A model generated the notes under the pieces. It did not search any database. It was given only the letters and a program-made list of their open reading frames with translations, and was not told the origin of the DNA. The position numbers and the translations under genes were made by a program. From contig NZ_CP026606.1 of assembly GCF_002945325.1 (NCBI RefSeq), forward strand, positions 510,001-542,000: a DNA stretch of 32,000 nucleotides, given 5' to 3'. Of the stretch, positions 10,857 to 13,331 are shown in pieces. The stretch is from Methanococcus maripaludis (GTDB lineage Archaea > AGJL01 > Methanococci > Methanococcales > Methanococcaceae). Every line of letters starts with the position of its first letter. Position 1 is the stretch's first letter.

Positions 10857-11267
10857 ATGACTGAAATAGAAGAAAAAGTTTTAAGAAATCTAAAAAGCCA
10901 CGAAGAATTAAGCGATATTTTAAAATCGACACTTTATAAAATGTCTTTAGAAGGTTTTGAAGCATTCGAAGACTATAAAAATTACGCGAATCCAGATTCA
11001 TTCTCAAACGTTGTTAAAAAAATTGAATGGGTCGAACTGGTTGAAGATGACAGGTTATCAGTTCATAAATTGCAAAAAATTAAACTGCCAGACCTTTCAA
11101 CAAAAACCACAGAAATTATGTCAGAAGGCAATTTAACAATAGATCAGTTTTTAGTTGGATATATTGTGCCAGAAGATAAGGTAATCGAAGAAATAAAAGC
11201 AGGAAATGAATTATATTATGTAAAAGATGCGGATTTGTTTTACAAAATCAATGTTGACGAATTTTAA
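10857..11267 (+). CDS. Conserved hypothetical 136-aa protein, paralog A (family repeated at 23987 and as a remnant at ~13029)
   Basis: RBS AAGGTGAAAAAATG. 98/136 positions are identical to ORF 23987-24397 by my hand alignment, with no gaps. I recognise no domain. Confidence 0.75.
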   Translation: MTEIEEKVLRNLKSHEELSDILKSTLYKMSLEGFEAFEDYKNYANPDSFSNVVKKIEWVELVEDDRLSVHKLQKIKLPDLSTKTTEIMSEGNLTIDQFLVGYIVPEDKVIEEIKAGNELYYVKDADLFYKINVDEF

Positions 11268-11274
11268 TTATCAA

Positions 11275-11482
11275 AAACTCTCTTTTTACAGTTTTAATAA
11301 ATAATTTACTTCTTTTAAAGCAATACTTGATCAATATTCCCACTACCCTAATTTGGATTAAGTAATTTAATTGACAACATTTAACACTCAAAAAATACAG
11401 ATTTTAACAATATCTACTTTTTAATAATCTTAACTAAACGATATATCTTCAAAAAGTACTTTTAACAATCCATAATCTAAAA
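11275..11482 (+). repeat. 208-bp leader/promoter repeat, copy 1 (upstream of the PI-PLC gene)
   Basis: Identical to 13101-13308 except one position (aattgAcaac vs aattgGcaac), checked base by base. Confidence 0.95.
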
Positions 11483-11585
11483 GAAGAGGAATGGAATCGT
11501 TATGCCAGCTATTAATTATAATTTATGCACAATTCAAACGTTCCAATCTTATTATATTATATATCCAAATTTGAGGGGTTAATTA

Positions 11586-13021
11586 TGGAAGAAAAGGAAG
11601 TTAATCTAAAAAATAACAAAATAAATTCAAATCCTAAAATTTCAATTGAAAATTCTGGAATATCTGAAATACCTAGGGGGAATAACTGGATGAATTTTAT
11701 TCCAGATAATGTTAAACTAAGTCAGATGTCAATACCTGGAACACATGACAGTTGTGCTTATCAAGGAGGCGAACTTGCTCAAACACAAGATTACAATTTA
11801 AAAGAACAGTTAGAAAATGGCATTAGATTTTTGGATGTAAGGGGCAGGCATATTGAGGATGTTATCACCATTCATCACGGCCCAATTTATTTAAATCAAA
11901 ACCTTGGTGATGTGTTAAACCGTTGCTATGAATTTTTAAATAATAATCCCTCAGAAACCATACTTTTTAGTTTAAAAAAGGAGTATGAAGATTCAAAAAA
12001 TACGGAAAGTTATTATCAAACAATCATGAATAAATATTACAATAGCTCAAAATGGTATGTAGGGGACGATATTCCAAATTTAGGGGACGTAAGGGGCAAG
12101 ATAGTTTTATTAAGAAGATTTAGTTTTGAAGATGGGGATAAAAATAATAATGCGTATCCGGTTTTTGGAATTAATTTACAAAGTGGCTGGAAAGATGATC
12201 AGACATTTTCAACGCCAATCGCAGAAGTTCAAGACGAGTATAAAATACCTGAAAAAATATTATGGGATGATGTGTCGGAAAAATTAGATGCAATTAATAC
12301 GTTTTTTAATAAGTCCATTGCTTCCCATAATTACGAAAAACTATATTTAAACTTCTCTAGCGGCCATATGTACCTATTTGATGTAATCCCTATTGCAGGA
12401 ATGAGAACGATTGCAGATGAGATTAATCCCAAAGTTTCCACATTCTATGAAAATAATAAATTCGTGAAAGATCTATCCTGCATTGTTATAATGGACTTTC
12501 CAACTATTGGAAACATGGAGGATATTTATTGGCAATCCCTCAGAAAACACTTCCCGATATACAAAATAGATGTCCAAATCTTAAATGAATATCAAAATGA
12601 ATACATGTACGCTGCGGATTATAAGCCATTTGATAAAGATAGGAGAAGAGTATTTACCTGGAGACCTGGAACTAAAGTTAATCAGGGGGATTGGTTATTG
12701 ATACCTGTTGCAAGGGAAGATAATTGTTATTATATATACAATACAAAGCAGAGCGAATACCTGTATGCTGCGGATTATAAACCATTTGATAAAGATAGGA
12801 GAAGAGTATTTACCTGGAGGCCAGGGGGGATTCCAACCGCTGGAAAATGGGAAATACAGTTTTTAGACGACACAAAAACAAGATGTTACATAAGAAATGT
12901 TTACCAGAATGAATACCTGTATGCTGCGGATTATAAGCCATTTGATAAAGATAGGAGAAGAGTATTTACTTGGAGACCCGGAACTAAAGTTACTCAGGGA
13001 GTTTGGAAAATAATTCATTGA
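11586..13021 (+). CDS. Bacterial-type phosphatidylinositol-specific phospholipase C (PI-PLC X domain) fused to a three-fold 52-aa repeat domain (beta-trefoil/ricin-B-like, QxW-type)
   Basis: MSIPGTHDS, GIRFLDVRGR, ITIHHGPIYL, NNPSETILFSLKKEYED and LGDVRGKIVLLRR closely resemble the Bacillus PI-PLC blocks as I remember them (IPGTHDS, IRFIDIRGR, LHHGPLYL, NPSETIIMSLKKEYED, LGDARGKIVLLKR). The C-terminus has 3 x NEY[ML]YAADYKPFDKDRRRVFTWRPG...[QA]G.W. GAGGGG RBS 8 nt before ATG 11586. The track start 11525 has no RBS. Confidence 0.85.
12599..12995 (+). repeat. Three in-frame 156-bp-period repeats with near-identical ~70-bp cores inside the PI-PLC gene
   Basis: gaataca/ctgta.gctgcggattataa.ccatttgataaagataggagaagagtatttac.tggag starts at 12599, 12755 and 12911. 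Spacing is 156 nt (52 codons) each time. Confidence 0.9.
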
Positions 13022-13028
13022 TATAAAA

Positions 13029-13094
13029 ACTTTTTACAATACAAGGGCGTTAGATATGGAGTTATTCTACAAAATCATTGTTGAAGATTTTTAA
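13029..13094 (+). pseudogene. 3'-terminal remnant of a third copy of the 136-aa gene family
   Basis: Translates as ..TFYNTRALDMELFYKIIVEDF*. Compare the paralog C-termini ..ELYYVKDADLFYKINVDEF* and ..ELYYSKEAELFYKINVDEF*. It has the same position relative to the 208-bp repeat as the intact copy at 10857-11267. Confidence 0.65.
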
Positions 13095-13100
13095 TTACCT

Positions 13101-13308
13101 AAACTCTCTTTTTACAGTTTTAATAAATAATTTACTTCTTTTAAAGCAATACTTGATCAATATTCCCACTACCCTAATTTGGATTAAGTAATTTAATTGG
13201 CAACATTTAACACTCAAAAAATACAGATTTTAACAATATCTACTTTTTAATAATCTTAACTAAACGATATATCTTCAAAAAGTACTTTTAACAATCCATA
13301 ATCTAAAA
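13101..13308 (+). repeat. 208-bp leader/promoter repeat, copy 2 (upstream of the P47-like gene)
   Basis: See 11275-11482; 207/208 identical. Confidence 0.95.
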
Positions 13309-13331
13309 AGGGGGATACCATAAGTACCGTA

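What the first reader, a model, noticed from the sequence alone, without database searches (positions are those of the whole stretch)
10857..13331. Cassette-like accretion: gene-3'-end remnant plus an identical 208-bp leader placed before two different toxin-like cargo genes
Seen: the order is a 136-aa gene (intact), a 208-bp segment (11275-11482), the PI-PLC gene, a ~65-bp remnant matching only the last ~20 codons of the 136-aa family (13029-13094), the same 208-bp segment (13101-13308, 207/208 identical), then the P47-like gene. The remnant is much more diverged from copy A than the leader is, so the two leaders are younger or homogenised relative to the gene fragments.
Inference: cargo genes appear to be captured or stacked downstream of a conserved '136-aa gene + leader' module by recombination between related elements. 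This resembles toxin-cassette swapping in phage or polymorphic-toxin loci. The shared leader (TATA-like cgatatatc near its 3' end) would put both cargos under the same control.
Basis: partly seen in the sequence, partly recalled or inferred. Interest (0 to 1): 0.75.

Follow-up and report, generated by a model that had tools for sequence, protein, structure and literature searches.

The report
Stacked toxin-gene units behind repeated anchor gene
In a strain-variable island of the methanogen Methanococcus maripaludis, two different toxin-like genes carry almost the same 208-base upstream region and sit behind one copy of a small repeated "anchor" gene, most likely joined there by ordinary homologous recombination rather than by a new cassette-capture machine.

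Summary
A 222-nt direct repeat lies at 11261-11482 and 13087-13308; its core is 207/208 identical. It precedes a PI-PLC gene and a P47/TULIP-like gene. A 43-nt remnant of the 136-aa gene's 3' end sits before copy 2. Three other assemblies (two NCBI genomes and one Logan contig) show the same junctions.

The window is Methanococcus maripaludis, in a hypervariable island beside tRNA-Ser. The 136-aa gene belongs to a family found only in Methanococcus (nearly all named hits are M. maripaludis) and present in several copies per genome. At least six different gene sets follow it.

Only the first 30-43 nt after its stop codon go with the anchor gene. The rest of the leader travels with cargo. An 87% copy precedes P47 behind a beta-helix gene in another strain. 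A 74% relative precedes a CBAH hydrolase.

Between strains the anchor differs by 6-8%, while 4.4 kb of cargo is almost identical. The switch falls at variable positions, 11150-11348.

Best reading: homologous plus illegitimate recombination between anchor-headed modules. This resembles the repeat-flanked MIC island of the same species. Promoter function of the leader is plausible but untested. An integron-like, site-specific mechanism is not excluded, but the evidence leans against it.

The parts
10226..10405 (-). 59-aa ORF divergent from the anchor operon. It is conserved at this position in other strains as a 61-aa gene. No family assigned.
   Evidence: ORF list. Called genes in L001, L002 and L006. 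No Pfam or NCBIfam hit.
10441..10496 (.). TA-alternating palindromic stretch between the divergent 59-aa and 107-aa genes. Probably the promoter region of the anchor operon (inference).
   Evidence: Inverted repeat I9; sequence. The reading as a promoter rests on the Methanococcales TATA consensus TWTATATA (PMC5512572).
10522..10845 (+). 107-aa ORF directly upstream of the anchor gene. It has a coiled-coil C-terminal half and possibly a ribbon-helix-helix N-terminus. In other anchor copies a 40-51-aa DUF2080 gene occupies this position.
   Evidence: Pfam gives coiled-coil hits only. The L002 allele hits RHH_1 at E = 0.0048, below the cut-off. DUF2080 partners are seen in L001, L003 and L010.
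10857..11267 (+). 136-aa 'anchor' gene, copy A. The family is found only in Methanococcus (nearly all named hits M. maripaludis), is present in several copies per genome, and has no assigned function.
   Evidence: Homologue searches. Cluster of 43 sequences, with several accessions per genome. No Pfam or NCBIfam hit. AF2 model pLDDT 69 with no significant PDB fold match.
11268..11310 (+). 3' flank of the anchor gene (TTATCAAAAACTCTCTTTTTACAGTTTTA...), with a T-run that looks like a terminator. This is the only part of the 'leader' shared with anchor copies that carry other cargo.
   Evidence: Flanks compared across loci. Homology with L003 and L001 module 1 ends 30-43 nt after the stop codon. 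The terminator role is inferred.
11275..11482 (+). Leader copy A (208 nt).
11440..11447 (+). TATA-like GATATATC in leader A. It matches TWTATATA at 6/8 positions. Predicted transcription start near 11470 (inference).
   Evidence: Sequence. AACGATAT is the longest block invariant among the three leader variants. Consensus and spacing from PMC5512572.
11483..11584 (+). Part of the PI-PLC upstream region not shared with copy B. It holds a second TATA-like element (ATTATATA, 11556-11563) and a Shine-Dalgarno-like GAGGGG (11573-11578).
   Evidence: Sequence; alignment.
11585..13021 (+). Cargo 1: bacterial-type phosphatidylinositol-specific phospholipase C (478 aa), with a C-terminal domain of three 52-aa repeats.
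   Evidence: Pfam PI-PLC-X, 51.5 bits. PDB Bacillus, Staphylococcus and Listeria PI-PLC, E down to 5e-39. Repeat family D3 at 12583-13006. Weak RicinB_lectin_2 hit, E = 0.045. Start at 11585 as called in L002 and L011.
13032..13040 (+). TTTTACAAT: the first 9 nt of the short anchor-gene remnant that follows PI-PLC in strain L006. It marks the left junction of the 2.2-kb P47 unit.
   Evidence: Window compared with L006.
13052..13094 (+). Remnant 'R': the last 13 codons plus the stop of a 136-aa-family gene, in frame (DMELFYKIIVEDF*).
   Evidence: BLAST 81% over 43 nt. Five of 8 differences are at third codon positions (p = 0.09). The codons ATT and GAA are shared with the 3' end of the S2 paralogue.
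13101..13308 (+). Leader copy B (208 nt, 207/208 identical to A). It carries TATA-like GATATATC at 13266-13273. Predicted transcription start near 13296, with a GGGGG Shine-Dalgarno at 13310-13314.
   Evidence: Copy B is 100% identical in L002, L011 and L014.
13332..14579 (+). Cargo 2: P47/OrfX-like (TULIP) protein, 415 aa, with a hydrophobic C-terminal segment.
   Evidence: Pfam Clostridium_P47, 24.7 bits, below the cut-off of 27. The profile's only PDB hit is 5WIX P-47, E = 1.2e-3. RefSeq name 'TULIP family P47-like protein'. Homologues in Aquimarina and in fungi.
14640..15110 (-). Remains of a two-gene minus-strand pair that travels with P47. The pair is intact in L010 (61 aa, weak ParE-like, plus 83 aa). 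In the window it appears to be disrupted.
   Evidence: Only a 34-aa ORF remains in the window. L010 genes. ParE_toxin E = 0.016, below the cut-off. The coordinates are approximate.
13041..15246 (+). The 2.2-kb block present in the window, L002 and L011 but absent from L006. L006 has 92 nt there instead (the rest of its own 30-nt anchor remnant plus flank).
23533..23820 (-). PadR-like winged-helix gene divergent from anchor copy C.
   Evidence: Pfam HTH_34 and PadR. The same pairing occurs in all strains.
23987..24397 (+). 136-aa anchor gene, copy C (72% aa identity to copy A). In all strains examined this type lies next to tRNA-Ser or its 58-nt fragment.
24818..24904 (-). tRNA-Ser(GCT). Its 3' 58 nt recurs as a displaced fragment (att-like) in S2 and other strains where further elements are inserted.

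Best explanation
This is a recombination scar in a strain-variable island of Methanococcus maripaludis that lies beside tRNA-Ser.

The island is built of modules. Each module is headed by a small operon: a short DNA-binding-type gene (DUF2080, or the 107-aa ORF here) followed by a 136/137-aa gene, usually with a divergent winged-helix gene. The 136-aa gene is present in several near-identical copies per genome, so it supplies dispersed homology. I call it an anchor.

Downstream of each anchor sits cargo that differs between copies and strains: toxin-like, toxin-antitoxin-like and defence-type genes.

The 208-nt 'leader' has two parts. The first ~30-40 nt is the anchor's own 3' flank. The rest is the upstream region (probable promoter and 5' UTR) of particular cargo genes, and it moves with them.

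In this window a 2.2-kb unit has been joined behind the PI-PLC unit. It comprises the 3' end of a different anchor paralogue, the leader, the P47-like gene and a ParE-like pair. The joining was by recombination between two anchor-headed modules. One junction lies inside an older 30-nt anchor remnant (at TTTTACAAT). The other lies in AT-rich flank.

Shown:
- the anatomy;
- the multi-copy anchor with variable cargo;
- the leader's association with cargo;
- variable crossover positions between strains.

Inferred:
- homologous plus illegitimate recombination, without a dedicated recombinase, did the joining. DNA may have been taken up by natural transformation;
- the leader carries the promoter. 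The predicted starts are near 11470 and 13296;
- the two leader copies are now 1826-nt-spaced direct repeats that can loop out PI-PLC. [quoted passage not shown]
For: - Multi-copy anchor: homologues occur only in Methanococcus and nearly all named hits are M. maripaludis. The A-type cluster holds 43 sequences, with up to five accessions from one genome. Two to three copies are seen per locus.
- Variable cargo: six junction classes follow A-type genes. They are PI-PLC, a 134-aa/87-aa pair then MACPF, an unassigned two-gene minus-strand pair, DUF2683/ParE-like, a 224-aa minus-strand gene, and a NosD beta-helix protein.
- The leader goes with cargo: L010 has the anchor, an 839-aa beta-helix gene, then P47 preceded by leader positions 82-218 at 87%. 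L011 has a 74% relative before a CBAH gene. A leader profile finds nothing else in the fetched loci.
- Only 30-43 nt after the stop codon is shared with other anchor copies.
- Mosaic divergence: window against L011 shows 23 differences in 10841-11207, then 4 in 4.5 kb (Fisher p = 1e-22). The last differences fall at 11150 (L001), 11207 (L011) and 11348 (L002, L006). The crossover point is therefore variable.
- Conversion-like pattern: leader A of the window shares 4-5 variants with copy B against leader A of L002 and L006.
- L006 lacks the P47 unit. It has a 30-nt remnant plus a flank that also follows a different cargo in L003.
- Remnant lengths differ: about 30 nt, at least 43 nt, and about 7 nt plus terminator in L010.
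- Precedent: M. maripaludis OS7 loses its MIC island by homologous recombination between 221-bp direct repeats made of a duplicated gene 3' end (PMC6181927). The species is naturally transformable (PMC10133366).
Against: - Two independent-looking remnants (L003, and L006 plus the window) begin at the same position, about 30 nt before the stop codon. In L003 a 0.9-kb cargo is flanked by 40-nt direct repeats, 38/40 identical.
- Several cargo junctions fall within 1 nt of the stop codon.
- Both patterns could also come from a site-specific process.
- No recombination event has been observed directly.
- The direction of change is not determinable: insertion of the P47 unit, or its replacement in L006.
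- No transcript data exist for this locus. The TATA-like motif is only a 6/8 match, and PI-PLC has a better TATA-like element closer to its start.
- The high anchor polymorphism could reflect paralogue conversion rather than between-strain transfer of cargo.
Confidence: 0.6

Rival explanations
1. Site-specific cassette capture. The last 30-40 nt of the anchor gene (TTTTACAAAATCAATGTTGACGAATTTTAATTATC) would be an attachment site. Cargo units would be inserted there by a recombinase acting in trans and stacked as in an integron. The DUF2080 or 136-aa proteins would be accessory factors.
For: - 40-nt direct repeats (38/40) flank a 0.9-kb two-gene cargo in L003.
- The L003 and L006 remnants start at the same position, although different cargo lies to their left.
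- Homology between anchor copies ends within 1 nt of the stop codon in three different cargo contexts.
- NCBIfam names DUF2080 'transposase-associated'.
Against: - Remnant lengths are not uniform: about 30 nt, at least 43 nt, about 7 nt.
- The window's P47 unit is joined inside a remnant and inside AT-rich flank, with a 65-nt loss relative to L006. These are not matching sites.
- Crossovers between strains scatter over about 200 nt.
- No recombinase gene lies in the modules. The nearest integrase-domain ORF (29832-30380) is 18 kb away, in a position conserved among strains.
- No strong inverted repeats mark the boundaries.
- The 136-aa model has no recombinase-like fold match.
Confidence: 0.12
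2. Local tandem duplication. A segment comprising the gene's 3' end plus the leader was duplicated in place. The remnant is an old, decayed copy of gene A, and the leaders were later homogenised by gene conversion. P47 was already downstream, or replaced a second PI-PLC copy.
For: - The repeat is direct, and its copies are only 1826 nt apart.
- A conversion-like pattern is seen between leaders A and B.
- The sharp step in identity occurs at the stop codon.
Against: - The remnant keeps its reading frame and its stop codon. Five of its 8 differences are at third codon positions, and three of them swap Asp and Glu (p = 0.09 only).
- Two of its differences, ATT and GAA, match the 3' end of the S2 paralogue. 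This points to a distinct paralogue and not to random decay.
- P47 keeps its own leader behind a different gene in L010.
- L006 shows PI-PLC followed by a different remnant.
Confidence: 0.1
3. Tandem integration of separate tRNA-Ser-targeting elements. Each element would end in winged-helix gene, 136-aa gene, att site. The junction after copy A would be a decayed boundary between two such elements, and the leader would be the left end of the next element.
For: - Copy C and the 30%-identical S2 paralogue both lie 200-420 nt from tRNA-Ser or from its displaced 58-nt fragment.
- Integrase- and MCM-bearing elements are inserted beyond them in S2 and L006.
Against: - No tRNA-Ser fragment lies next to any A-type copy in the window or the fetched loci.
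- A-type copies are often followed directly by cargo, with no intervening sequence.
- This does not explain remnants of the anchor's 3' end downstream of cargo.
Confidence: 0.1
4. Assembly artefact: the duplication was created by misassembly of a repeat.
For: Short-read contigs L012, L013, L015 and L016 break inside the leader.
Against: The same junctions occur in two further NCBI assemblies (L002, L011) and in one Logan contig (L014) that spans PI-PLC end, remnant, leader B and P47. The two copies differ at one position and have different flanks.
Confidence: 0.01

Closest known systems
MIC island of Methanococcus maripaludis OS7/KA1 (PMC6181927)
   Same: Same species. The cargo is bounded by near-identical direct repeats of about 220 bp that derive from the 3' end region of a resident gene. 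No transposition or integration enzyme is encoded in the unit. Loss, and proposed gain, is by homologous recombination between the repeats.
   Different: In the MIC island the repeat is coding sequence of a single-copy conserved gene, and excision has been observed experimentally. Here the repeat is mostly non-coding leader. The neighbouring gene is a multi-copy, island-specific family. Two different cargo units are stacked. No excision has been observed.
Integron gene-cassette arrays
   Same: A conserved platform with variable cargo genes stacked next to it. Cassette number differs between strains.
   Different: There is no IntI-type integrase at the platform and no attC-like imperfect inverted repeat at unit ends. 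Each unit carries its own upstream region, whereas integron cassettes are promoterless. The junctions are not uniform.
Orphan toxin/immunity modules of polymorphic toxin loci (Rhs, CDI), and the VARTIG module of Thermococcales (PMC8416519)
   Same: Fragments of a conserved upstream gene are retained in front of displaced downstream units. Recombination between related loci shuffles the variable parts. The cargo has a conflict-related flavour.
   Different: In polymorphic toxin loci the retained fragment is fused in frame to the toxin domain, and an immunity gene follows. Here the remnant ends with its own stop codon, the cargo genes are separate ORFs with their own leader, and no immunity gene was identified.
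tRNA-linked genomic islands and variable hot spots flanked by conserved genes in integrated elements (established general knowledge)
   Same: The island lies next to tRNA-Ser. Displaced tRNA fragments occur in other strains. Cargo turnover takes place between conserved flanking genes.
   Different: The conserved gene is itself repeated many times inside the island. Its 3' end recurs as short remnants downstream of cargo.

Membership tests
Integron / gene cassette | IntI-type tyrosine recombinase gene adjacent to the insertion site (attI) | tested here: not met
   No recombinase lies in or next to the anchor modules. The only integrase-domain ORF in the window is 29832-30380, 18 kb away, in a position conserved among strains.
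Integron / gene cassette | attC-type imperfect inverted repeat at the 3' end of each cassette | tested here: not met
   An inverted-repeat scan of 10800-15400 found only weak AT-rich pairs (at most 34 nt, 70-80% complementary). None sits consistently at unit ends.
Integron / gene cassette | Promoterless cassettes expressed from a platform promoter | tested here: not met
   Each unit has its own 230-320-nt upstream region with TATA-like elements, and a T-run follows the anchor gene. Transcription itself was not tested.
Repeat-flanked island lost and gained by homologous recombination (MIC-island type, PMC6181927) | Near-identical direct repeats of about 200 bp or more flanking the cargo | tested here: met
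   11261-11482 and 13087-13308: 222 nt at 97%, with a core 207/208 identical.
Repeat-flanked island lost and gained by homologous recombination (MIC-island type, PMC6181927) | The repeat derives from the 3' end of a resident gene | tested here: inconclusive
   The repeat starts in the last 7 nt of the anchor gene, and a 43-nt diverged gene remnant lies just upstream of copy 2. Most of the repeat, however, is non-coding.
Repeat-flanked island lost and gained by homologous recombination (MIC-island type, PMC6181927) | Strains or derivatives with a single repeat copy and no cargo (the recombination product) | tested here: not met
   No fetched strain has anchor-leader-P47 without PI-PLC. L006 lacks the P47 unit, but through different junctions. 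Only about a dozen strains were sampled.
Polymorphic toxin system with orphan modules | Toxin domain fused to the C-terminus of the conserved protein; orphan fragments in frame with the toxin; an immunity gene follows | tested here: not met
   The remnant ends with TAA at 13092-13094. P47 starts 237 nt later as a separate ORF. The 136-aa protein has no toxin or delivery domain hit.
tRNA-targeting integrative element (for the island as a whole) | Displaced copy of the tRNA 3' part marking the far end, plus an integrase | tested here: inconclusive
   A 58-nt tRNA-Ser fragment is displaced in S2, L004, L006 and L008, with integrase- and MCM-bearing elements beyond it in S2 and L006. No second copy lies inside this window. 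The island's left end lies outside the window.
Type II toxin-antitoxin pair (small upstream gene + 136-aa gene) | Two small adjacent or overlapping genes, one with a DNA-binding antitoxin-type domain | tested here: met
   The DUF2080 gene overlaps the 137-aa gene by 16 nt in L001 and L003. DUF2080: Pfam E = 3e-7, NCBIfam E = 2.6e-13. DUF2080 is listed as an antitoxin domain in PMC10440598. The 107-aa ORF ends 11 nt before the anchor gene.
Type II toxin-antitoxin pair (small upstream gene + 136-aa gene) | Partner belongs to a recognised toxin family or fold; toxicity neutralised by the partner | tested here: not met
   No Pfam or NCBIfam hit. There is no significant PDB fold match; the best is E = 0.09, and the weak hits include NTF2-like folds such as VirB8. 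Toxicity cannot be tested with these tools.
Bacterial PI-PLC (cargo 1) | PI-PLC X catalytic domain homologous to the secreted Bacillus, Staphylococcus and Listeria enzymes | tested here: met
   Pfam PF00388, 51.5 bits against a cut-off of 23.1. PDB 2OR2, 1PTD and others, E = 5e-39 over residues 24-259.
P47/OrfX TULIP family (cargo 2) | Significant match to the Clostridium P-47 family | tested here: inconclusive
   Pfam PF06597, 24.7 bits, below the cut-off of 27. A profile of six homologues has one PDB hit, 5WIX P-47, at E = 1.2e-3 over 245 residues. RefSeq names close homologues 'TULIP family P47-like protein'.

The most novel reading that the evidence does not exclude
The 3' end of the 136/137-aa gene would be the attachment site of an undescribed archaeal cassette-capture system. 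Short units (leader plus gene, or small gene pairs) would be inserted and stacked there site-specifically. The DUF2080 ('transposase-associated') and 136-aa proteins, or a recombinase acting in trans, would be the machinery. The shared leader would serve as a portable promoter giving co-regulated expression of captured toxin genes. This would be a functional analogue of integrons in a methanogen.
Probability: 0.1. Interest if true: 0.8.

Novelty: new member of a known kind. Interest (0 to 1): 0.4.

Why it matters
The locus gives a concrete, testable example of how a genetically tractable, naturally transformable methanogen assembles and reshuffles an arsenal of bacterial- and eukaryote-like toxin genes. 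These include PI-PLC, P47/TULIP-like, MACPF and a DNase-I/CdtB-like phosphatase-fold protein.

The reshuffling uses a multi-copy anchor gene as recombination homology.

The anchor family, its partner genes and the shared leader are apparently undescribed; no paper describing them turned up in the searches made. They would be useful markers for mapping the variable island across strains.

If the leader proves to be a working promoter, it could also serve as a genetic tool. It would be a handle on how these cargo genes are regulated.

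Tried and rejected
Leader as RNA or coding sequence:
- Structured RNA or riboswitch: no Rfam match at E <= 1 in 10200-15400. Folding z-scores are +0.11 and -0.32. Rejected.
- Coding potential: only short ORFs of 20-47 aa, none conserved-looking.

Distribution of the leader outside the fetched strains:
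- The exact 25-mer is absent from the species-representative genomes, and the exact 24-mer from JGI metagenomes and IMG/VR.
- These were exact-match scans, so diverged copies would be missed.

Distribution of the 136-aa family:
- No relatives in the species-representative genomes, metagenomes or viral contigs by the search for related loci.
- None in plasmids or phages by tblastn.
- The exhaustive profile search found only 5 cluster representatives. Those traced to a named source are M. maripaludis.

Function of the 136-aa protein:
- The first AF2 model was unusable, pLDDT 37.
- The second model reached pLDDT 69 but has no significant PDB match.

Other checks:
- A partial tRNA-Ser copy next to copy A, as a boundary between elements: none found.
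- Exact-sequence look-ups of the window's own PI-PLC and copy A found nothing, so the source assembly was not identified.
- An inverted copy of the gene's 3' end inside the leader, and similarity between the right junction and the anchor's 3' end, were considered. Both were judged chance matches in AT-rich DNA.

Full report
OBSERVATION

The window carries a two-copy direct repeat at 11261-11482 and 13087-13308. It is 222 nt long, 97% identical without gaps, with copies 1826 nt apart. BLASTN gives 99.5% identity over 208 nt for the core, 11275-11482 against 13101-13308.

Copy A follows the stop codon of a 136-aa ORF (10857-11267) and precedes a PI-PLC gene. Copy B precedes a P47-like ORF (13332-14579).

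Just upstream of copy B, 13052-13094 matches the last 13 codons plus the stop of the 136-aa gene at 81%. This remnant is much more diverged than the leader: 8/43 against 1/208 differences, p = 3e-6.

The arrangement is not an assembly error. The same junctions occur in GCA_013761205 (L002), in GCA_014207315 (L011) and in a Logan contig (L014) that spans the PI-PLC end, the remnant, leader B and P47.

A third full copy of the 136-aa gene lies at 23987-24397. It is about 420 nt from tRNA-Ser(GCT) at 24818-24904.

ORGANISM AND CONTEXT

All close homologues of the 136-aa protein come from Methanococcus maripaludis or Methanococcus sp.. An exhaustive profile search of 1.8 billion cluster representatives found only 5. 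Those traced to a named source are M. maripaludis.

The family is absent from plasmid, phage, viral-contig, metagenome and species-representative collections.

The A-type cluster contains 43 distinct sequences. Several accessions come from the same genome, a few tens of gene numbers apart.

Neighbourhoods from about a dozen strains show a hypervariable island beside tRNA-Ser. It is built of modules. Each module has:
- a divergent winged-helix gene;
- a small upstream gene, either DUF2080 (40-51 aa) or, as here, a 107-aa ORF;
- the 136/137-aa gene;
- cargo.

The C-type copy always sits next to tRNA-Ser. A paralogue in strain S2 with 30% identity sits next to a displaced 58-nt fragment of tRNA-Ser. 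In S2 and L006, integrase- and MCM-bearing elements are inserted beyond that point.

The window's island also carries:
- a MACPF protein;
- an Exo_endo_phos-fold protein;
- a type I restriction-modification system;
- an EVE-domain protein;
- an extra TBP gene;
- a STAND NTPase.

WHAT FOLLOWS THE ANCHOR GENE

At least six different junction classes follow A-type copies that are 92-98% identical to each other:
- the leader and PI-PLC;
- a 134-aa/87-aa minus-strand pair, then MACPF;
- a two-gene minus-strand pair of unknown family;
- DUF2683/ParE-like genes;
- a 224-aa minus-strand gene;
- an 839-aa NosD-type beta-helix protein.

Homology between copies ends either within 1 nt of the stop codon or 30-43 nt after it. 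The 30-43 nt are T-rich (TTATCAAAAACTCTCTTTTTAC...). They look like the gene's own terminator region, which is an inference.

Only the first fifth of the 'leader' therefore belongs to the anchor.

WHAT THE LEADER GOES WITH

In strain L010 the order is DUF2080, 137-aa gene, beta-helix gene, P47. The 140 nt upstream of P47 match leader positions 82-218 at 87%. They are preceded by a scrap of the anchor's terminator region.

In L011 a third, 74% relative of the leader lies upstream of a choloylglycine-hydrolase-family (CBAH) gene. It is in the same array, about 3 kb beyond P47.

A profile of the leader finds no other copies in the fetched loci. Exact 24- and 25-mers are absent from the large collections.

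The leader is not a known RNA family and shows no excess secondary structure.

The longest block invariant among the three variants is AACGATAT. The Methanococcales consensus is TWTATATA, centred 26-27 nt upstream of the start (PMC5512572). On that basis GATATATC at 13266-13273 predicts a start near 13296. The 5' UTR would be about 36 nt and would include the GGGGG Shine-Dalgarno at 13310-13314. That is sensible geometry for P47.

For PI-PLC the same motif predicts a 115-nt UTR. A better TATA-like element (ATTATATA, 11556-11563) lies closer to the start codon. All of this is inference.

HOW THE STACKING AROSE

Strain L006 has anchor, leader, PI-PLC, then a 30-nt remnant of the anchor's 3' end plus about 70 nt of flank. 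It has no leader B and no P47. It lacks window 13041-15246 and has 92 nt there instead.

The same remnant-plus-flank follows a quite different cargo in strain L003. There the cargo is bounded by 40-nt direct repeats.

In the window the left junction of the 2.2-kb P47 unit lies nine bases into that old remnant, after TTTTACAAT at 13032-13040. The right junction lies in AT-rich flank near 15220-15247.

The remnant that came with P47 keeps its reading frame and its stop codon. Five of its 8 differences are at third codon positions, three of them swapping Asp and Glu (p = 0.09). Two of its differences match the 3' end of the S2 paralogue. It is therefore more likely the 3' end of another paralogue than a decayed copy of gene A.

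MOSAIC DIVERGENCE BETWEEN STRAINS

The anchor gene differs by 6-8% between strains, while the cargo is almost identical. Window against L011 shows 23 differences in 10841-11207, then 4 in 4.5 kb (p = 1e-22). The last differences fall at 11150, 11207 and 11348, depending on the strain compared.

Leader A of the window also shares 4-5 variants with copy B against leader A of L002 and L006. This is a conversion-like pattern.

MECHANISM

Variable crossover positions and non-uniform remnant lengths favour homologous recombination anchored in the multi-copy gene, combined with illegitimate joins. They do not favour a fixed-site recombinase.

The species offers a direct precedent. The MIC island of strain OS7 is flanked by 221-bp direct repeats formed by a duplicated gene 3' end. 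It is lost by homologous recombination, and no mobility enzyme is encoded in it (PMC6181927).

M. maripaludis is naturally transformable (PMC10133366).

The two leader copies are now direct repeats that could loop out the 1826-nt PI-PLC unit. No strain in hand shows that product.

RIVALS

A site-specific, integron-like process cannot be excluded, for these reasons:
- two remnants start at the same position;
- 40-nt direct repeats flank one cargo;
- several junctions sit at the stop codon;
- NCBIfam names DUF2080 'transposase-associated'.

Against it:
- no recombinase lies in the modules;
- no attC-like repeats are present;
- the window's own junctions are irregular.

Simple in-place duplication, tandem integration of tRNA-targeting elements, and assembly artefact are each less well supported. 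Details are in the Rival explanations section.

THE PROTEINS

- PI-PLC is a clear homologue of the secreted bacterial enzymes, with E = 5e-39 to Bacillus structures. It has a C-terminal domain of three 52-aa repeats, with a weak beta-trefoil hint.
- The P47-like assignment is weak but consistent. Pfam scores below the cut-off. The profile's only PDB hit is P-47 at E = 1.2e-3. RefSeq names close homologues 'TULIP family P47-like protein'. The nearest relatives outside Methanococcus are in a Bacteroidota genome and in fungi.
- The 136-aa protein has no family. A model of moderate confidence (pLDDT 69) has N-terminal helices and a C-terminal sheet, and no significant fold match.
- DUF2080 is listed as an antitoxin domain (PMC10440598), and the genes overlap. 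A toxin-antitoxin-like or addiction role for the anchor pair is possible but unproven.

VERDICT

This is a further example of recombination-driven modular turnover in a tRNA-linked variable island. It has two undescribed ingredients: a multi-copy anchor gene family, and a leader shared by unrelated toxin-like cargo.

It is of moderate interest. It would be of high interest only if the minority, site-specific reading proved true.

Noticed in passing
window 1956-2018 and 2941-3003: A second case of a shared upstream region. A 63-nt segment, 83% identical, lies just before two different genes: the DUF5655 gene at 2049 and the hsdM gene at 3012. It ends in a TA-alternating stretch.
   Followed up: no
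window 24454-24571: Six of the window's eleven GGTAAC/GTTACC sites cluster in 118 nt between anchor copy C and tRNA-Ser, partly as palindromes (GGTTACCACGTGGTAAC). The cluster is conserved in all strains. It may be protein-binding sites at the end of the island.
   Followed up: partly
window 9505-10032 (-) and 8986-9426 (-): A full-length TATA-binding-protein gene (175 aa, two TBP repeats) and an EVE-domain gene lie inside the variable island, just upstream of the anchor module. The TBP is also present in L006 (88% nt) but absent at this position in L001. It may be an island-borne TBP paralogue.
   Followed up: partly
window 57-1884: A MACPF/perforin-domain protein with three 46-47-aa C-terminal repeats is followed by an overlapping gene for an endonuclease/exonuclease/phosphatase-fold protein. 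These are further toxin-like cargo, lying behind another anchor copy in L001.
   Followed up: partly
window 24818-24873; L018 10608-10665; L004, L006, L008: The 3' 58 nt of tRNA-Ser recur as a displaced fragment in strain S2 and others, directly after the anchor-type gene. In S2 and L006 a further inserted element beyond it encodes integrases, with an MCM helicase in S2. In L004 and L008 other genes (CobU, FecCD) follow the fragment. tRNA-Ser is thus a repeatedly used integration site.
   Followed up: partly
L011 14211-14410: A third, 74%-identical relative of the leader lies upstream of a choloylglycine-hydrolase-family (CBAH) gene. It follows a DUF6544 gene in the same array as PI-PLC and P47.
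   Followed up: yes
window 13332-14579: The nearest relatives of the P47-like protein outside Methanococcus are in Aquimarina (Bacteroidota, 37%) and in fungi (Aspergillus flavus 36%, Lasiosphaeria 28%). This patchy cross-domain distribution suggests horizontal transfer.
   Followed up: no
window 14640-15110 (-): The two small minus-strand genes that accompany P47 are intact in L010 (61 aa, weak ParE-like, and 83 aa). In the window they appear to be disrupted, with only a 34-aa ORF left.
   Followed up: partly
window 19073-22102: A 1009-aa protein with a STAND-type NTPase domain and TPR repeats. It is a defence- or signalling-type gene inside the island.
   Followed up: no
L003 2612-2680; L006 4833-4900; L010 about 11305-11330: A short AT-rich motif, GGTTATTTTAAAATTTAAAAAGA, recurs at module or cargo boundaries in several strains. 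A diverged copy lies at the window's right junction near 15215. It could be chance in AT-rich DNA or a shared boundary or terminator element.
   Followed up: no
window 18134-18223: A 45-nt tandem duplication (82% identical) lies inside the 497-aa minus-strand ORF 16772-18265.
   Followed up: no
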